Part shown: piece after piece, positions 19,726-26,080 of the stretch
Position numbering within the stretch: the first letter of the stretch is position 1
Layout: the number at the start of each line of letters is the position of its first letter
From: Escherichia phage BUCT789
Strand: one strand, 5' to 3'
DNA length: 40,771 nt
Sequence record: PQ999132.1
Notes under the pieces: model-generated
Database searches by the model: none
What the model was told of the DNA's origin: nothing
Seen by the model: only the letters and a program-made list of their open reading frames with translations
Program-made: the position numbers and the translations under genes

Positions 19726-20892
19726 ATGGCTACAACTCCTTTTAAGGGCGCGAATACCGCGCAATTCTATGTGGCGGAAGTGACCCCGGGCGTAACACCG
19801 GCTAACCCGGTATGGTCGCCGTTGCGCAACACGGGCGGCGTTCCTGCCATTACCCGCGACACGCTGACCTCCAACGAACTTGACGGCAGCCGAGAAACCA
19901 CATCCATCCGCACCGGTAACAAGCAGGTTAGCGGAGAATACGCTATTGAGCTTAGCTCTAAAAGTCAGGACGACTGGTTAGCCGGGGCTTTAGGCTCTAC
20001 GTGGCAACCCGGCGTTTCCCTGCCAGGACTATCGATTACCGTCGCACCCGCGGGCAAGACGTTCACACGCGCTACCGGCAGTTTTATCACTGACGGAGTT
20101 GGGGTAGGCGACCTGATTGCGTTTACCGATTTAACAGGCGATAACGCAAAACCATTTATTGTTACTGCAGTAACGGCTACGGTTGTTACTGGTGCGGGCA
20201 TCCAACACACCCTGACCACCGAGACAAAAACTAGTAAGGCTAAAACTGGCGACACGTTGGAAACTGGTAACGCGTGTAAGACGTTCTCTATCCTTACCTG
20301 GTACAAAGGCCAGTGCGGCGGTACTGACGCGTACACGTTAACCAAAGGCGTGGAAGTTTCTGGTTTTACCATCGAACAGGCTGTTAACGCGATGGTAACT
20401 GGCAGCTTTCCATTCATCGGTCGCAGTCAGGAGATTCTCACTACGCCGCCGACCGGTTCCAACTTCTCATCTGTTACTTTTGGTGATGAGCCGTTCTCTT
20501 CGGTTGACGTTTCCGTGTTCGACGGCTCTACGCCGTTGCGTTGTGACAGTCTGACTATCACCAACGATAACAGCGCGTCCGCGCAGTTCGAACTTGGTAA
20601 CACTAACGTAGCGTTTGTGGAGCGTAGCCGTGCAGCTAACACCTTCTCCATCTCCGGCAAGCTGTATGACATGGCGATGATCCAGAAGTTTATCAATGAG
20701 CAACAGGTAGAGATTAACTCTATTCTGGCGGGGGTAAACGGGGCTATGTCTTTCAGTTTGAAACGAGCGGAACTTACGGCGGTCACGCCAGAAATATCTG
20801 GCCCGGAATCAATCACTCAGAGCATAGAAGGACAGTCCACAGGCAATCAATATCAATCTTCTATTGTTATCCAGCGTATCACCTACGCATAA
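19726..20892 (+). CDS. major tail protein
   Basis: ATG 19726 with AAGAGG RBS; T/G/V-rich beta-type sequence; strong terminator downstream. Confidence 0.7.
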   Translation: MATTPFKGANTAQFYVAEVTPGVTPANPVWSPLRNTGGVPAITRDTLTSNELDGSRETTSIRTGNKQVSGEYAIELSSKSQDDWLAGALGSTWQPGVSLPGLSITVAPAGKTFTRATGSFITDGVGVGDLIAFTDLTGDNAKPFIVTAVTATVVTGAGIQHTLTTETKTSKAKTGDTLETGNACKTFSILTWYKGQCGGTDAYTLTKGVEVSGFTIEQAVNAMVTGSFPFIGRSQEILTTPPTGSNFSSVTFGDEPFSSVDVSVFDGSTPLRCDSLTITNDNSASAQFELGNTNVAFVERSRAANTFSISGKLYDMAMIQKFINEQQVEINSILAGVNGAMSFSLKRAELTAVTPEISGPESITQSIEGQSTGNQYQSSIVIQRITYA

Positions 20893-20919: not shown

Positions 20920-21093
20920 TTATTCTTTCAATTGCATAGGGTAGAAGTTAACGTGTTCCCCTTTATTCTGACGCAGTAAACATTCATCTAACGCATCTTC
21001 CCGACTACTTACAGCATAGATATCATTCCACTCATCCCATTCTTCGTCGAATACTCGGATTACATATATTGTTTTCATTACGGTCTCACTCAT
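20920..21093 (-). CDS. small hypothetical protein (accessory cassette)
   Basis: Minus-strand ORF; likely start at ATG 21093 overlapping the upstream stop. Confidence 0.45.
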   Translation of the reverse strand: MSETVMKTIYVIRVFDEEWDEWNDIYAVSSREDALDECLLRQNKGEHVNFYPMQLKE

Positions 21094-21316
21094 CAATGTT
21101 ACTCCGGTACTCCCGTAACTTCTCCAGGCTTTCAATTGCTTCCGCTAAGTCGGTTCCGGTGTCCTTATGCCCGCGAAGACCCATGCACAATAACTTCTTC
21201 AATGCGTGCTGTAGTGCGGGGTCACGGATGTCGAAGGCACGGAGAACATCGTAAACGTCTACGGTCATAGTGCTGCCGTGAGTGTTTGTCATTGTTCGGT
21301 TGTATTTTGAAGTCAT
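21086..21316 (-). CDS. hypothetical protein (76 aa, accessory cassette)
   Basis: ATGA-coupled to the phosphoesterase gene stop. Confidence 0.5.
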   Translation of the reverse strand: MTSKYNRTMTNTHGSTMTVDVYDVLRAFDIRDPALQHALKKLLCMGLRGHKDTGTDLAEAIESLEKLREYRSNIDE

Positions 21317-22443
21317 CCCAGCATCTCCGGTGAAATAGTTAAACGTGCGACCTCGCCATATTCGGCGCTATAAGTAATTACATTTGCACTACGGCCTGAC
21401 ATCCACCCGCCGCGGGAGGCATAGGCGTCTTTAGCCGCTAAGGTGCGGTGTTGCTCAACAATCATGTTACGGCTTTCTACAATCTTCTGGTGGTGCAGGT
21501 GGCCTACGTGGGCGTAGCTATAGACACTCTCACCGAACGCTTTGCGGAATTTGGCAATCATAACCGGTTCGATAGCATCGAATCGCGCCTTATGCCCGTG
21601 GTGAAAGAACAACGTCGTTTTTCCGTGTTGCACCATCTTGTAAACATCCGGCGACGTATCGACGAACACACGCGGCTCATTATCGTATAGCGTGCTGAAC
21701 ATCTCAGCCAACCAAATCATGCCACTCTCGTCGTGGTTCCCTTGCACAATAAGCAAGCGAACATTTTTATGCTTAACCAGCGCCATATCGACAACACGGC
21801 GGACCATGCGAATCATGTAGCGGACAAGTTTCTGGTAACGGGTGTCGGCGTCAAGGGCGTGACCGCTTGCAGGTGTAACGGCAACCAGACTATCAAAGTG
21901 TGCAAGGTCGCCCAGCAGGTTAATAACCCCTGTTCCAGCATCTGGCGCTTTCTGGAACGCAGCGTCGAACCATCGAGAGAACAGGTCTTCTGCAATCTTC
22001 ATGTCCCAGTCGTCGCCGCTCTCGTCAGCCCATGCCAGCATACCGAGATGGAAATCAGATACCGTGTAAAGATTGAGTAGTTTATCGTCCCGTTTGGCCC
22101 GGATCGCTTTAACAGGCGCGACCGGGGTAATCTCCAACTTCATGCCTTCGATTATGGCTTTCATTAACTCGACCTGACGTTCTGCGTCTGTGTCGGTCTT
22201 AACCCATTGCAACTTGGTGTTGCCAAACTCGTCCACCAGCGACGATGTGCCTTTAATCTTGTAGCCATCTGGTACAAGGTGGCTAACGTCACGCCCGTGG
22301 CCTACACCTTTCTTAGCCAGCTTCGCTTTACGGATACGAATAACTCGGTCTGAGATGCCGTATTTACGGGCGATGTCTACATTCTTCATCCCGGCGTTCA
22401 ATTCTTCCTGTAACTGTTCGTCGGTTATTTTCTTCTGGGCCAT
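21313..22443 (-). CDS. calcineurin-like metallophosphoesterase with N-terminal HTH domain
   Basis: 376 aa; HTH-like DIARKYGISDRVIRI; phosphoesterase motifs DFH, GDLAHFD, GNHDE, HHGH in order. Confidence 0.75.
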   Translation of the reverse strand: MAQKKITDEQLQEELNAGMKNVDIARKYGISDRVIRIRKAKLAKKGVGHGRDVSHLVPDGYKIKGTSSLVDEFGNTKLQWVKTDTDAERQVELMKAIIEGMKLEITPVAPVKAIRAKRDDKLLNLYTVSDFHLGMLAWADESGDDWDMKIAEDLFSRWFDAAFQKAPDAGTGVINLLGDLAHFDSLVAVTPASGHALDADTRYQKLVRYMIRMVRRVVDMALVKHKNVRLLIVQGNHDESGMIWLAEMFSTLYDNEPRVFVDTSPDVYKMVQHGKTTLFFHHGHKARFDAIEPVMIAKFRKAFGESVYSYAHVGHLHHQKIVESRNMIVEQHRTLAAKDAYASRGGWMSGRSANVITYSAEYGEVARLTISPEMLG

Positions 22444-22508
22444 GCTTACTTCCTCGTGTTTAGGATTTGTCCTATTTAACCACAGTGGATTCCTTTAAAT
22501 AAAGGCAA

Positions 22509-22835
22509 CTATTTACTTTCTGCGCCTATCGCCCACCCTGTCATTACCATTTGCAGACGGGTGGCTGTCAGTAGGCTATAGAAAGCATCTCCGTTTTTCT
22601 CTACCGAACGTATCACTGTGTAGGTTACGGCCTGCGGGGGTAGGCCCGATTTACCAACCTCCACGGCGGCCTCACACTCGCGAACTGTAGAGTCCTTGAA
22701 CGCCTTTACAATAGTAGGGTCGGCTTTCTCGAGCACACCAGAAGTCATAAGAACAGATTCACTAAATACCTGTTCGCACGGAGACCCAAAAGTAGCAAAA
22801 GACATAAAACCCAGAGCTAGTACTAATTTACGCAT
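22509..22835 (-). CDS. secreted/periplasmic small protein (signal peptide)
   Basis: 108 aa; N-terminal MRKLVLALGFMSFATFG; has its own conserved promoter. Confidence 0.6.
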   Translation of the reverse strand: MRKLVLALGFMSFATFGSPCEQVFSESVLMTSGVLEKADPTIVKAFKDSTVRECEAAVEVGKSGLPPQAVTYTVIRSVEKNGDAFYSLLTATRLQMVMTGWAIGAESK

Positions 22836-22863
22836 AATTATTTCCTCAGTAAGTTACATGTGA

Positions 22864-22892
22864 ATAGTACCCTATTATATTGGGGTGTGCAA
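22864..22892 (-). promoter_or_regulatory. promoter, TTGCAC-N17-TACTAT (minus strand), for the accessory cassette
   Basis: Reverse complement reads cTTGCACaccccaatataatagggTACTATtcacatg, near-identical to 3749-3777. Confidence 0.55.
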
Positions 22893-22999
22893 GTAGTGTG
22901 CTAGAATAAGTTTGCGCCTAGTGTCGCACACGAAAAGCGGGTGGTTCCCGCCTGGCGCATTAACCATAACCAGTAACCTCTTAACCAAAGGACTAAAGA

Positions 23000-23416
23000 A
23001 TGAAACTTTCTGATTTCTATTTTGCCGACCGCCACGCCGCCGGTACTAAAATGCCTATCCTTCTGCCCAGTGGTAAAGATTCCGGTGAATGGTTGCAGGT
23101 CATCGGCCCCGATTGTGACGCTGGTGTTCGTGCGGGCCGTGCCTACACAACGGCAATTCGACGCCTTACGGAAGAACTTGCGCCATTAGATAAAGAGTGC
23201 GAGGCGCTGAATAACTGGGCGCGCTATAATGATGAGAAGGGCTGGCGGGTGATGGACCTGAACAAGCAGCTTGCCGTGGAAATCGTCACCGGTTGGTCAT
23301 TCGACGAACCATTCAGCAAAGAGGCGCTTGCTAACCTGTTCGACCAGTACAGTGGGTTGGCAGAGGCCGTAGTTAAGCATCACACCGATAGCCGTGAGAA
23401 ACTCTCGGAAAAGTAA
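23000..23416 (+). CDS. tail assembly chaperone (lambda G-like)
   Basis: 138 aa acidic protein directly upstream of the tape-measure gene. Confidence 0.6.
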   Translation: MKLSDFYFADRHAAGTKMPILLPSGKDSGEWLQVIGPDCDAGVRAGRAYTTAIRRLTEELAPLDKECEALNNWARYNDEKGWRVMDLNKQLAVEIVTGWSFDEPFSKEALANLFDQYSGLAEAVVKHHTDSREKLSEK

Positions 23417-23778
23417 AAGCGCTGTATGAATTTGCGCAATGGTGCTTTGTCGACCGCCACAAACGTAAGCAATTCGACGACATCGCGGCGGGCCACCAGG
23501 CGGCTTTGATTGCAATGGGCGTGATTAAAGAACCGCAGATGAAAGAAGCGACGGGGCCGGAATGCCCCGTTTCTCTTATCGACGTGTTCGAGAAATACCG
23601 TGCCATTAAATTCCTACAGCGCGAAACAGATGATACTATCGTTATAATCCCGCGCGATGCGCTCAAATGGCAAGATTTGGTAGCGTTTCGTGATGTCGCC
23701 GGTTACGGCATAAGTTTGTTCGAAGCCGAGGTTATCATGGGCTTAGACGGAATATTTGAGGGCAGAGAAGATGGCTGA
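23000..23778 (+). CDS. tail assembly chaperone long form via putative -1 frameshift (lambda GT-like)
   Basis: The -1 frame is open from 23398 and runs to 23778, overlapping the last 6 codons; candidate slip site G GAA AAG at 23407-23413; the extension overlaps the tape-measure start. Confidence 0.4.
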
Positions 23779-26080
23779 TACGGCTTCCCTAATTGCCAGA
23801 GTAAAAACAGAAGGCGCTGATGTAGCCGCTAAACAGCTTGACGCTATGGCGGCATCCGCAGACCGTGCGGACACATCCGTAAACAAACTAACGCCGGATG
23901 TTAATAAAGTAAACTCCGCTACGTCTAAAGCGGCTTCTGACGGTTTCGCTAAATTCCGTAACGCCGCCGGGCAGGTAGGCTTCCAGGTGCAGGACATGGT
24001 CGTCCAGTTGCAGTCCGGCACGTCTGCATTCGTAGCAATCGGGCAACAAGGCTCTCAGCTTGCGGGTGCTTTCGGCCCTGGTGGCGCGGTGCTTGGGGCT
24101 GTAATTGCTCTCGCATCAGCAATTGGCGGTGTCCTGTATAAATCACTAACGGAGGCCGAAGGTAGCTCAAAAGACCTCGAGGCCGCGCAAAAGCAGTTAA
24201 AAGACACCTTCCAACAAACGGCATCCGGCTCTCTCGAACTGACAGACGGCCTTATCCAGCTTACCCAAATAAGCCGAGAAGCGGCGGAGACTCAACTTGC
24301 TTTGGCTAAGGCTAACGCAGACCTTATCGCGCAGCAAACAGCTAAAGCCGTTCGTGAGGACGCAGAGTCGTGGGAGACGTGGAAAGCCTCCACGGCATCA
24401 GCTATCAGCCAGTACGATGCATTGGTCTCTAAAGGTGCGGATGTAGGCGACACGTTAGAAAAACTCGGTGGCACTTACGAGGGTAACATCGTAGGCGTCA
24501 ACATGCTGGCGCAGAATATCGCAGAGCTTAGCAGTAAGTTTGGGGTTAACCGTGACCAGGCGCTGGAGATGATAGCGGCGCAGAGTGCGTTTAACAAAGA
24601 GCCAACCGCCGAGAATGCCCGTCGCATCGCCGATGTGTTTACCGACTGGCTCGGTAATACAAAACAGTTGAACCCGGAACTTATCCGCCTGACCGACAAT
24701 GCCAACAAGAACGCCACGGCACTGGAGAACGCGGAGAAGTCCGCAAACGCGGCGGCGGAGGCCCAAAAGAATCTTGGTCGTAACGTCAACTCAACAACGC
24801 AGAGATTCCAGGAACAGAACGAAGCTATCGTCAAAAACCAGCAAATCGCTATCTTAAGTGACCGCGAGCGTATCCGTGCGCAAGCTGAACTGGATAAGCA
24901 GGCGTTCGCTAAACGTGAAGCTGTCACCAAAGAACAGATCGCCGCGTATAATGCTGCGCGTGACACGGAAGCACAACAAGACATCGCTCGCATCGACGCT
25001 ACCGAAAAAGCGAAGGCCGACCGCGAGGCCAAATCGAACGAGAAACGGCTGGCGGCACAAGCCAAACGCGAAGAAACGGCGGCTGAACGACAGAAAAAAG
25101 CGGCGGAAGATTTCCTGGCTACTGTCGACCGCACAACCGGAGATGAGATTTCGCGCATTACCGCTGCGGAAGAGCAGAAACTGGCAAAACTGGAAGAGTT
25201 TAACAGAGCTGGGACTATAAGCCAGCAGCAATACGAAAACGCCAGGACGCAGATTATGCTCTCGGCCGAACAGGCCCGCCAGGAAGAACTCGCCAAGCGA
25301 GAGAAAGAACGACAGGAGAAGAACCAGAAAGGCGAAGACTTCATGGCTCAGATTATGGGCCAAAACGCCGCTGAGCTTGAGCTTCTGGAGATTCAGGAGC
25401 AACAAAAACTGGACGTTGCTGACAGGTATCGCGAACAGAATCTGATTAACGAAGAACAGTACCAGGCCGCGGTTAATGCTATAAATGACCAGTACGCGTT
25501 AAAACGTGCTAACGCAACGGGTAACGCTTTTGGCATGATGGCGGATAATATTAAATCGTCGCTTGGCGAAGCGTCTACTGCGTACAAAGCTTTCGCTATT
25601 GCGCAGGCCACTATTGCCACATACACCTCCGCTATAGAGGCTTATAAATCTGCATCGGCTATCCCTATTGTTGGATGGGTGCTCGGGCCTGTAGCCGCCG
25701 CCGCCGCCGTAGCCGCGGGGCTCGCAAACATTGGCAAAATTCGTTCGGCCCGTGAGCAGGGCGGTAACTTAGCTGCAGGTCAGTTATCTACTATCGCGGA
25801 ACGTAACAAGCCAGAAGTTATTATGCCTGCAGGGGCGTCACGCGTCCGTACCGCAGAACAGATGCGCCAGATTATGGGCGAGAACGGCAACAAGTCAGGC
25901 GGTGACAGCGTTACAATCGTCAACAACACCACCGGACGTGTTGATTCCGCCGTTACAGAGCGTGACGACGAAGGGCGGTTACGTGTTATCATCAGCGAAA
26001 CAGTATCGGCGGCGTTACAAGACAGCAACAGTGCAATCTCTAAGTCACGCCGTGCTACACGAAACCAGCCGGGGTATTAA
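23756..26080 (+). CDS. tail tape-measure protein
   Basis: 774 aa; long A/E/K/Q-rich coiled-coil; Gly/Ala-rich hydrophobic segment near C-terminus. Confidence 0.85.
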   Translation: MRAEKMADTASLIARVKTEGADVAAKQLDAMAASADRADTSVNKLTPDVNKVNSATSKAASDGFAKFRNAAGQVGFQVQDMVVQLQSGTSAFVAIGQQGSQLAGAFGPGGAVLGAVIALASAIGGVLYKSLTEAEGSSKDLEAAQKQLKDTFQQTASGSLELTDGLIQLTQISREAAETQLALAKANADLIAQQTAKAVREDAESWETWKASTASAISQYDALVSKGADVGDTLEKLGGTYEGNIVGVNMLAQNIAELSSKFGVNRDQALEMIAAQSAFNKEPTAENARRIADVFTDWLGNTKQLNPELIRLTDNANKNATALENAEKSANAAAEAQKNLGRNVNSTTQRFQEQNEAIVKNQQIAILSDRERIRAQAELDKQAFAKREAVTKEQIAAYNAARDTEAQQDIARIDATEKAKADREAKSNEKRLAAQAKREETAAERQKKAAEDFLATVDRTTGDEISRITAAEEQKLAKLEEFNRAGTISQQQYENARTQIMLSAEQARQEELAKREKERQEKNQKGEDFMAQIMGQNAAELELLEIQEQQKLDVADRYREQNLINEEQYQAAVNAINDQYALKRANATGNAFGMMADNIKSSLGEASTAYKAFAIAQATIATYTSAIEAYKSASAIPIVGWVLGPVAAAAAVAAGLANIGKIRSAREQGGNLAAGQLSTIAERNKPEVIMPAGASRVRTAEQMRQIMGENGNKSGGDSVTIVNNTTGRVDSAVTERDDEGRLRVIISETVSAALQDSNSAISKSRRATRNQPGY

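What the first reader, a model, noticed from the sequence alone, without database searches (positions are those of the whole stretch)
23398..23778. Putative -1 programmed frameshift producing a long tail assembly chaperone
The -1 frame relative to the chaperone ORF (23000..23416) is open from 23398 to 23778 and ends inside the tape-measure gene start, the conserved G/GT arrangement of long-tailed phages. A candidate slip site G GAA AAG (23407-23413) lies 1 nt before the stop. The heptamer is not the canonical X XXY YYZ, so the exact site is uncertain.
Basis: partly seen in the sequence, partly recalled or inferred. Interest (0 to 1): 0.45.

Follow-up and report, generated by a model that had tools for sequence, protein, structure and literature searches.

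The report
Tail chaperone frameshift, already annotated elsewhere
This is the usual two-frame tail assembly chaperone gene of a long-tailed E. coli phage, in which a few ribosomes slip back one base at the last codon to make a longer protein; the identical long protein is already deposited for phage K1H, so the finding is real but ordinary.

Summary
Gene G (23000-23416, Pfam Phage_TAC_4) is followed by a -1 frame open from 23398 to 23778 (Pfam Phage_TAC_18). That frame ends in ATGGCTGA, which overlaps the tape-measure start at 23771.

The window is a Kagunavirus-like phage. The predicted 259-aa fusion (...LSEK|VKALY...) is 100% identical to K1H ORF19B (YP_009168853.1), a joined CDS. Salmonella phage Shemara carries the same kind of joined CDS.

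In 47 related loci, down to about 48% amino-acid identity:
- G always ends NNA_AAG + TAA/TAG.
- The heptamer varies: G_GAA, G_GTA, A_GCA, C_GCA, G_GGA, G_TCA.
- Only A_AAG plus the abutting stop is invariant.

Synonymous variation is lowest for the whole gene at fusion codons 136-142. No conserved RNA structure follows. Four distant relatives reach the same T domain through canonical in-frame heptamers (T_TTT_TTC, A_AAT_TTT).

The likeliest mechanism is a -1 slip of tRNA-Lys from AAG to AAA, helped by the adjacent stop. An independent start at CTG 23422, as several records annotate, is unlikely but not excluded. Nothing here is experimental.

The parts
19726..20892 (+). Tail tube (major tail) gene. 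It lies upstream of the chaperone genes, separated from G by a reverse-strand insert.
   Evidence: Pfam Phage_tube_2 at E=2.1e-36. Annotated at the equivalent place in Bas75.
23000..23416 (+). Gene G: tail assembly chaperone, 138 aa, 15.6 kDa. This is the zero-frame product.
   Evidence: Pfam PF08748 Phage_TAC_4 at 35.9 bits (cut-off 21.1). PHROG 15027 positions 1-138 of 259 at E=1.2e-65. Mass.
23407..23413 (+). Only its last four bases, A_AAG (23410-23413), are invariant in relatives.
   Evidence: Heptamer tally in 47 related loci: GGAAAAG 37, GGTAAAG 3, AGCAAAG 3, GGCAAAG 1, GGGAAAG 1, CGCAAAG 1, GTCAAAG 1. The penultimate codon always ends in A although it encodes E, V, A, G or S.
23414..23416 (+). 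TAA stop of G, directly abutting the slip codon. It is the candidate 'shifty stop' stimulator.
   Evidence: The stop abuts AAG in all 47 loci: TAG 31, TAA 16, TGA 0. In the window's own ORFs the stops are TAA 31, TGA 21, TAG 3. The base after the stop is A in 41 loci and C in 6.
23405..23425 (+). Zone of suppressed synonymous variation, the putative recoding cassette NNA_AAG_TAR_NN_GCG_YTG. It includes GCGCTG at 23419-23424.
   Evidence: Same-codon fraction is 0.96-1.0 in 5-codon windows starting at codons 136-138, against a mean of 0.494 and sd of 0.114 over 255 windows. This is the global maximum. The hexamer is GCGCTG in 45 loci and GCGTTG in 2.
23413..23778 (+). T extension read in the -1 frame after the slip (121 codons plus TGA). 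The GT fusion is join(23000..23413, 23413..23778): 259 aa, 29.3 kDa.
   Evidence: PHROG 15027 positions 138-259 of 259. The fusion is 100% identical to K1H YP_009168853.1. In the -1 frame, third-position entropy is 1.35 against 0.6 at positions 1 and 2.
23506..23760 (+). Phage_TAC_18 domain within the T extension.
   Evidence: Pfam PF23812 at E=9.5e-18, residues 37-121 of the -1 frame translated from 23398.
23771..26080 (+). Tape measure protein gene. Its ATG overlaps the T stop (ATGGCTGA).
   Evidence: PHROG 1538 at E=1.6e-189. Annotated start in Bas75, Henuyfy11N and K1H. The ATGNCTGA overlap is kept in most relatives.

Best explanation
Genes G and T of this Kagunavirus-like siphophage are expressed as two proteins from one start codon.

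**Products.** Most ribosomes terminate at TAA 23414 and make G (138 aa). A minority slip back one base on A_AAG (23410-23413) and go on to make GT (259 aa, junction ...LSEK-VKALY...). In the slip, peptidyl- or aminoacyl-tRNA-Lys un-pairs from AAG and re-pairs with AAA. GTA at 23413-23415 is then read, and translation continues in the -1 frame to TGA 23776.

**What is shown.**
- The anatomy of the two frames.
- The family membership of both halves.
- The conservation pattern across relatives.
- The identity of the predicted fusion to a deposited frameshift product.

**What is inferred.**
- That the slip happens at all, and how often.
- That the abutting UAA/UAG stop is the stimulator, acting as a slow-to-decode A-site codon with tRNA-Lys in the P site.
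- That a structured RNA is not the stimulator.
- By analogy with lambda gpG/gpGT: the G part binds the tape measure protein, and the T part recruits the tail tube protein. Neither protein ends up in the virion.
For: **Family membership.**
- G is Phage_TAC_4 and the -1 frame is Phage_TAC_18.
- One PHROG profile of 259 positions (15027) is covered end to end by G (positions 1-138) and the -1 frame (positions 138-259).

**Deposited fusions.**
- The predicted fusion is found exactly as ADA82316.1/YP_009168853.1, K1H ORF19B, a joined CDS.
- The Shemara 'frameshift product' has the same junction.
- The alternative SGK junction is not in the collection.

**Conservation of the slip site (47 related loci).**
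- All end NNA_AAG_TAR, while the rest of the heptamer and the encoded penultimate residue vary.
- The synonymous-site conservation peak at codons 136-142 is the global maximum of the gene.

**Evidence that the junction region is translated.**
- The first 34 residues after the junction are conserved as protein.
- There is no ATG, GTG or TTG for 31 codons, and none in the first 47-60 codons in L016, L026 and L027.

**Distant relatives.**
- Four relatives with 30-35% identity in G reach the same PF23812 domain in the -1 frame, through in-frame T_TTT_TTC (three cases) or A_AAT_TTT (one case).
- These sites fall at the homologous position of the protein.

**Literature.**
- A_AAG is the most shift-prone tetramer in E. 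coli.
- E. coli has a single tRNA-Lys reading both AAA and AAG.
- NNA_AAG sites are used naturally: IS1222, and B. subtilis cdd (PMC4066793; PMC5009743).
- A slip site immediately before the stop is also predicted for phage KL1 (PMC3483164).
Against: - There is no experimental evidence for any member of this phage group.
- A_AAG without a stimulator is at about background level in reporter assays: 0.147% against 0.112% (PMC4066793).
- No conserved downstream hairpin or pseudoknot exists. The RNAalifold consensus is -0.1 kcal/mol, and the window's own fold has z = +1.08. The stimulator is therefore conjectural.
- One genome announcement for a related phage, Shashou, states that there is no canonical slippery sequence and annotates T as a separate gene.
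- Several records start T at the CTG or TTG 6 nt after the G stop.
Confidence: 0.85

Rival explanations
1. T is a separate protein of about 118 aa. It would be made by weak initiation, or by termination-reinitiation, at CTG 23422, which is TTG in SETP7 and Shashou. GGAAAAG would serve as a weak Shine-Dalgarno sequence. This is how Eta, SETP7, Shashou and Bas75 are annotated.
For: - CDS annotations start at this codon.
- The Leu codon is only ever CTG (45 loci) or TTG (2 loci), the two Leu codons that can initiate.
- Shashou's authors found no canonical slip site.
Against: - Pairing with the anti-Shine-Dalgarno sequence upstream of YTG averages -3.3 kcal/mol. G and tape-measure starts average -4.8 and -5.5, and background is -2.2 +/- 2.5. 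Pairing is essentially absent in L023, L043 and Eta (-0.4 to -1.8).
- The model does not explain the invariant A_AAG, the A-ending penultimate codon, the invariant GCG, or the absence of TGA.
- The aligned Leu is invariant as an internal residue in distant relatives. There it is encoded by CTA, CTT or CTG downstream of canonical heptamers. An initiating CTG would insert Met.
- From established knowledge of lambda: the T part works only when fused to G.
Confidence: 0.08
2. T starts independently at TTG 23506 or ATG 23515, giving 90 or 87 aa. This is how Henuyfy11N is annotated and what many automatic gene callers produce.
For: - The Henuyfy11N CDS begins at the position equivalent to 23515.
- An 87-aa form is seen on hundreds of contigs in the protein collection.
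- The Pfam PF23812 match begins at about this point.
Against: - There is no Shine-Dalgarno sequence upstream (ggcggctttgatt).
- Met35 is Ile in L016, L017, L026 and L027. L026 has no ATG, GTG or TTG in the first 60 codons.
- The 34 upstream residues are conserved with a coding-type substitution pattern.
Confidence: 0.03
3. The fusion is as in the best explanation, but the mechanism is the first reader's: classical simultaneous two-tRNA slippage on the heptamer G_GAA_AAG. AAG would sit in the A site, and tRNA-Glu would re-pair from GAA to GGA in the P site. The stop codon would play no part.
For: - 37 of 47 loci have GGAAAAG and one has lambda's own GGGAAAG.
- GAA to GGA keeps two of three pairs plus a G:U apposition.
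- G_GGA_AAG is highly shift-prone in E. coli (PMC5009743).
Against: - Lineages with G_GTA, A_GCA, C_GCA and G_TCA cannot re-pair the P-site tRNA, yet they keep the arrangement.
- The stop abuts the site in every locus and is never TGA, which suggests that the stop matters.
Confidence: 0.2

Closest known systems
Escherichia phage K1H ORF19A/ORF19B (YP_009168854.1 / YP_009168853.1; Kagunavirus) and Salmonella phage Shemara gp25/gp24
   Same: The gene order and junction are the same. The window's predicted GT protein is 100% identical to K1H ORF19B, which is deposited as a joined CDS. Shemara's record calls the protein 'tail assembly chaperone frameshift product'.
   Different: There is nothing of substance. 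Those annotations are predictions too. The record identical to the window over 22900-24100 (Henuyfy11N) and the near-identical Bas75 instead annotate two separate genes.
Phage lambda gpG/gpGT (Levin 1993; Xu 2004, 2013, 2014, as summarised in PMC5009743)
   Same: - Two overlapping ORFs lie just upstream of the tape measure gene.
- A -1 shift near the end of G makes a minor fusion product.
- The A-site codon is AAG.
- No strong RNA structure is required.
   Different: - Lambda uses the canonical G_GGA_AAG a few codons before the stop. Here only A_AAG is conserved and it abuts the stop.
- The protein families differ from lambda's G and T (Phage_TAC_4 and Phage_TAC_18).
- A reverse-strand gene block separates the tube gene from G.
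NNA_AAG / A_AAG tetranucleotide -1 frameshift sites (IS1222 G_CGA_AAG, B. subtilis cdd A_CGA_AAG, the IS3 A_AAG construct)
   Same: The minimal slip unit is the same. So is the dependence on the single E. coli tRNA-Lys, which prefers AAA over AAG (PMC5009743 and PMC4066793).
   Different: The IS examples rely on a downstream pseudoknot or stem-loop. No conserved structure is found here. The only conserved neighbours are the stop codon and GCGYTG.
Burkholderia phage KL1 gp18/gp19
   Same: The predicted slip site lies immediately upstream of the stop of the short chaperone ORF (PMC3483164).
   Different: KL1 has a canonical heptamer, GGGAAAC, and an intervening tail gene before the tape measure gene.

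Membership tests
G/GT-type tail assembly chaperone pair expressed by programmed -1 frameshift (Levin 1993; Xu et al. 2004) | Two ORFs lie between the major tail (tube) gene and the tape measure gene, directly upstream of the latter. | tested here: met
   Tube gene 19726-20892, G 23000-23416, T to 23778, tape measure gene from 23771. A reverse-strand block (20920-22967) sits between the tube gene and G.
G/GT-type tail assembly chaperone pair expressed by programmed -1 frameshift (Levin 1993; Xu et al. 2004) | The second ORF is in the -1 frame, overlaps the end of the first, and has no credible start of its own. | tested here: met
   - The overlap is 19 nt.
- The first ATG, GTG or TTG is 31 codons in.
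- The Shine-Dalgarno score upstream of CTG 23422 is near background.
- Residues from the junction onward are conserved.
G/GT-type tail assembly chaperone pair expressed by programmed -1 frameshift (Levin 1993; Xu et al. 2004) | A canonical X_XXY_YYZ slippery heptamer lies in the overlap. | tested here: not met
   G_GAA_AAG is not X_XXY_YYZ, and the first three positions vary among relatives. A Z_ZZN tetramer (A_AAG) is present and invariant. Distant relatives do carry canonical heptamers.
G/GT-type tail assembly chaperone pair expressed by programmed -1 frameshift (Levin 1993; Xu et al. 2004) | The two-frame arrangement is conserved in divergent relatives. | tested here: met
   The arrangement is kept in all 47 related loci tallied, down to about 48% identity. 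It is also kept in 4 relatives with 30-35% identity in G.
G/GT-type tail assembly chaperone pair expressed by programmed -1 frameshift (Levin 1993; Xu et al. 2004) | Both halves are homologous to recognised chaperone families. | tested here: met
   PF08748 at 35.9 bits (cut-off 21.1), PF23812 at 64.6 bits (cut-off 27), and PHROG 15027 covered end to end.
G/GT-type tail assembly chaperone pair expressed by programmed -1 frameshift (Levin 1993; Xu et al. 2004) | The fusion protein is made in vivo at a low fixed ratio to G and is required for tail assembly. | not testable with these tools
   This needs a Western blot, mass spectrometry and genetics. No such data were found for Guernseyvirinae in the paper searches.
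Tetranucleotide / NNA_AAG -1 frameshift sites of E. coli-type decoding | A_AAG lies in the zero frame, so that tRNA-Lys can re-pair with AAA. | tested here: met
   The site is at 23410-23413. It is invariant in 47 loci and is the only Z_ZZN tetramer in the 19-nt overlap.
Tetranucleotide / NNA_AAG -1 frameshift sites of E. coli-type decoding | A flanking stimulator, such as a downstream pseudoknot or hairpin, or an upstream Shine-Dalgarno-like element. | tested here: not met
   No conserved structure is found from -20 to +123. The upstream 14 nt are not conserved. The only conserved neighbours are the stop codon and GCGYTG.

The most novel reading that the evidence does not exclude
The Guernseyvirinae chaperone genes may carry a distinct, structure-free recoding cassette of about 17 nt: NNA_AAG_UAR_NN_GCG_YUG. 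In it, a P-site tRNA-Lys would slip because an RF1-readable stop (UAG or UAA, never UGA) with a weak +4 base (A or C) sits in the A site. The invariant GCGYUG would act as a linear 3' element of unknown mode. This would be a natural, conserved 'shifty stop' -1 signal in a phage structural operon. It would also explain why annotators report 'no slippery sequence' in this group.
Probability: 0.3. Interest if true: 0.4.

Novelty: already known. Interest (0 to 1): 0.17.

Why it matters
**Practical value.** The main use is for annotation.
- Most deposited genomes of this phage group, including the records identical or near-identical to the window here, list T as a separate gene with a CTG, TTG or internal ATG start.
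- Those records should carry join(23000..23413, 23413..23778).

**Biological value.** This is modest.
- The family shows that the frameshift is kept while the heptamer decays to a bare A_AAG next to a stop.
- That makes it a clean natural test case for stop-assisted -1 slippage without RNA structure.

Tried and rejected
- **Downstream stimulatory RNA structure.** RNAalifold on 17 diverse sequences gave three trivial pairs at -0.1 kcal/mol. The window's own fold is no better than shuffles, z = +1.08. A G+C hairpin at 23550-23571 lies about 135 nt away, in a poorly conserved linker.
- **Transcriptional slippage.** The A run is only 4 nt, and 3 nt in several relatives. Rejected.
- **Other slip sites in the 19-nt overlap.** There is no other Z_ZZN tetramer.
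- **Upstream Shine-Dalgarno-like stimulator.** The upstream columns are not conserved.
- **Solved structures by sequence.** Nothing below E=0.4.
- **Rfam and tRNA scans of the whole window.** Nothing found.
- **Wider sampling of relatives.** An alignment-based scan of viral contigs returned the same loci. A scan of bacterial genomes found no relative.
- **Literature.** The Jerseyvirinae paper (PMID 25663216) is not held. Two searches failed on term syntax.
- **Structure prediction.** Not run. It would not discriminate between the hypotheses.

Full report
**What is there.**
- The window is a Kagunavirus-like (Guernseyvirinae) E. coli siphophage. Bases 22900-24100 are 100% identical to Escherichia phage Henuyfy11N and 94-99.9% identical to many Kagunavirus genomes.
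- ORF 23000-23416 (138 aa) ends ...TCG GAA AAG TAA.
- The -1 frame carries TGA at 23395-23397 and is then open from 23398 to TGA 23776-23778.
- That TGA overlaps the tape-measure ATG at 23771 as ATGGCTGA.

**Both halves are chaperone families.**
- G matches Pfam Phage_TAC_4 at 35.9 bits (cut-off 21.1).
- The -1 frame matches Phage_TAC_18 at 64.6 bits (cut-off 27).
- A single 259-position PHROG profile (15027, 'tail assembly chaperone') is covered by G at positions 1-138 and by the -1 frame at positions 138-259. Fused proteins of exactly this architecture therefore already exist in databases.
- The tail tube gene (Phage_tube_2) lies upstream at 19726-20892, and the tape measure gene (PHROG 1538) follows.

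**It is already annotated.**
- RefSeq K1H (NC_027994) has a joined CDS, ORF19B, over the homologous interval.
- Salmonella phage Shemara has a joined 'tail assembly chaperone frameshift product'.
- I built the window's fusion with the junction at the last sense codon (...LSEK|VKALY...). It is found exactly in the protein collection as ADA82316.1/YP_009168853.1 of K1H. The Shemara fusion with the same junction is also found. The alternative junction (...LSGK...) is not in the collection.
- Annotation is nonetheless inconsistent. Bas75, Eta, SETP7 and Shashou start a separate T gene at the CTG or TTG 6 nt after the G stop (window 23422). Henuyfy11N starts it at the ATG equivalent to 23515.
- The Shashou announcement states that there is 'no canonical slippery sequence' (PMC6776780).

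**Comparative evidence for the shift and its site.**
- Forty-seven related loci were tallied: IMG/VR contigs plus five phage records, down to about 48% amino-acid identity. All end G with NNA_AAG followed at once by TAA or TAG. The complete ones continue in the -1 frame for 119-121 codons, most ending in ATGNCTGA.
- The heptamers are GGAAAAG (37), GGTAAAG (3), AGCAAAG (3), and GGCAAAG, GGGAAAG, CGCAAAG and GTCAAAG (1 each).
- The penultimate residue is therefore E, V, A, G or S, but its codon always ends in A. The last codon is always AAG, never AAA.
- In several lineages the P-site tRNA could not re-pair. The conserved unit is therefore A_AAG plus the stop, not a heptamer.
- G is the only one of 55 ORFs in the window that ends in A_AAG+stop.
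- In 28 non-identical sequences, synonymous-codon identity in 5-codon windows is 0.96-1.0 for windows starting at fusion codons 136-138. The mean is 0.494 and the sd 0.114 over 255 windows, so this is the global maximum. That pattern is the signature of a nucleotide-level signal overlying the coding sequence.

**Evidence that the stretch after the junction is translated.**
- The first 34 residues (V-x-A-L-Y-x-[FY]-A-x-W...F-D-x-I...G-H-x-A) are conserved across lineages.
- Variation there is concentrated at -1-frame third positions: entropy 1.35 against about 0.6 at positions 1 and 2.
- There is no ATG, GTG or TTG for 31 codons in the window. L026 has none in the first 60 codons. L016 and L027 have none before codons 48 and 58.
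- Met35 is Ile in L016, L017, L026 and L027.

**Distant relatives.**
- Four contigs with 30-35% identity in G have the same Phage_TAC_4 plus -1-frame Phage_TAC_18 pairing.
- They carry canonical in-frame heptamers, T_TTT_TTC in three and A_AAT_TTT in one, 18-48 nt before the G stop.
- In a protein alignment these sites fall within a few residues of the window's junction.
- The Leu encoded by CTG 23422 is one of 17 invariant columns. In those relatives it is encoded by CTA, CTG, CTG and CTT, as an internal residue.
- This argues that the residue is a translated Leu, not an initiator.

**Mechanism.**
- According to PMC5009743 and PMC4066793, Z_ZZN is the minimal -1 site and A_AAG is by far the best tetramer in E. 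coli.
- E. coli reads AAA and AAG with one tRNA-Lys.
- NNA_AAG is used naturally by IS1222 and occurs in B. subtilis cdd.
- Bare tetramers, however, are near background (0.147% against 0.112%) unless stimulated.
- No conserved RNA structure is present here, and nothing conserved lies upstream.
- The conserved neighbours are three. The stop is TAG in 31 loci, TAA in 16 and TGA in none, although TGA would keep Val in the -1 frame and accounts for 21 of 55 stops in the window. The base after the stop is A or C. The hexamer GCGYTG follows.
- I infer a 'shifty stop': tRNA-Lys in the P site slips while a slowly decoded stop occupies the A site.
- In this particular phage G_GAA also allows near-cognate P-site re-pairing, so a tandem slip cannot be excluded.
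- The product is the same in either case.
- The efficiency is unknown. In lambda the G:GT ratio is about 30:1 (PMC5009743).

**Rivals.**
- Initiation or re-initiation at CTG 23422 is weakened on several counts. Shine-Dalgarno pairing is near background: mean -3.3 kcal/mol, against -4.8 and -5.5 for G and tape-measure starts, and background of -2.2 +/- 2.5. It is essentially nil in three lineages. The model does not explain A_AAG, GCG or the choice of stop. The conserved internal Leu in distant relatives also counts against it.
- Initiation at 23506 or 23515 is contradicted by the conserved upstream residues and the loss of those codons in relatives.
- Transcriptional slippage is excluded because the A run is too short.

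**Verdict.**
- The exact site is refined to A_AAG (23410-23413) next to the stop.
- The feature is a textbook G/GT arrangement, and the identical fusion protein is already deposited, so it is already known.
- Two points are of modest interest: the decay of the heptamer to a stop-adjacent tetramer, and the unexplained invariant GCGYTG.

Noticed in passing
window 23419-23424: GCGCTG (Ala-Leu in the -1 frame) is invariant at synonymous sites: GCGCTG in 45 and GCGTTG in 2 of 47 loci. Other conserved Ala and Leu codons nearby vary freely. No pairing partner was found. It could be a linear 3' context for the slip, fast-decoded codons that lock in the new frame, or a weak (re)initiation codon.
   Followed up: partly
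window 23414-23417: The G stop is TAG (31 loci) or TAA (16 loci) and never TGA across relatives, and the next base is A or C. The window's own ORFs use TAA 31, TGA 21 and TAG 3. This suggests selection on the identity of the stop codon.
   Followed up: partly
window 20920-22967 (- strand): A reverse-strand block separates the tail tube gene from the chaperone gene. It holds a 76-aa ORF, a 376-aa protein with a possible N-terminal HTH (weak GerE/LuxR match, E=0.047) and below-cutoff metallophosphoesterase matches, which PHROG 704 names 'DNA repair exonuclease' (E=1.7e-165), and a 108-aa protein with a signal-peptide-like N-terminus (PHROG 14165, function unknown). In SETP7 and Shashou the gene next to G is instead annotated as a superinfection immunity protein (Shashou's note cites similarity to T4 Imm), so this looks like a variable accessory slot.
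   Followed up: partly
window 23550-23571: A G+C-rich hairpin (8 pairs, 6 of them G-C) lies inside the T reading frame, in its poorly conserved linker. It is about 135 nt downstream of the slip site, too far to act as a frameshift stimulator.
   Followed up: no
window 24475-25344 (- strand): A 289-aa antisense ORF inside the tape measure gene is annotated as 'hypothetical protein Gp17' in Henuyfy11N. It is probably an artefact of the Ala/Glu/Lys-rich repetitive coding sequence on the other strand.
   Followed up: no
whole window: Twenty of 55 ORFs have a -1-frame continuation of at least 60 codons past their stop, nearly all through ATGA, GTGA or TTGA start/stop overlaps. A scan for 'open -1 frame after a stop' would give many false frameshift candidates in this genome. 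No tRNA gene and no Rfam family reach threshold.
   Followed up: yes
L047-L050 (IMG/VR contigs; heptamers at about 1833-1860 of each locus): Distant relatives of the same chaperone pair use canonical T_TTT_TTC or A_AAT_TTT sites 18-48 nt before the G stop. Within one protein family the slip signal has therefore moved and changed type, while the junction stays at the homologous place in the protein.
   Followed up: partly
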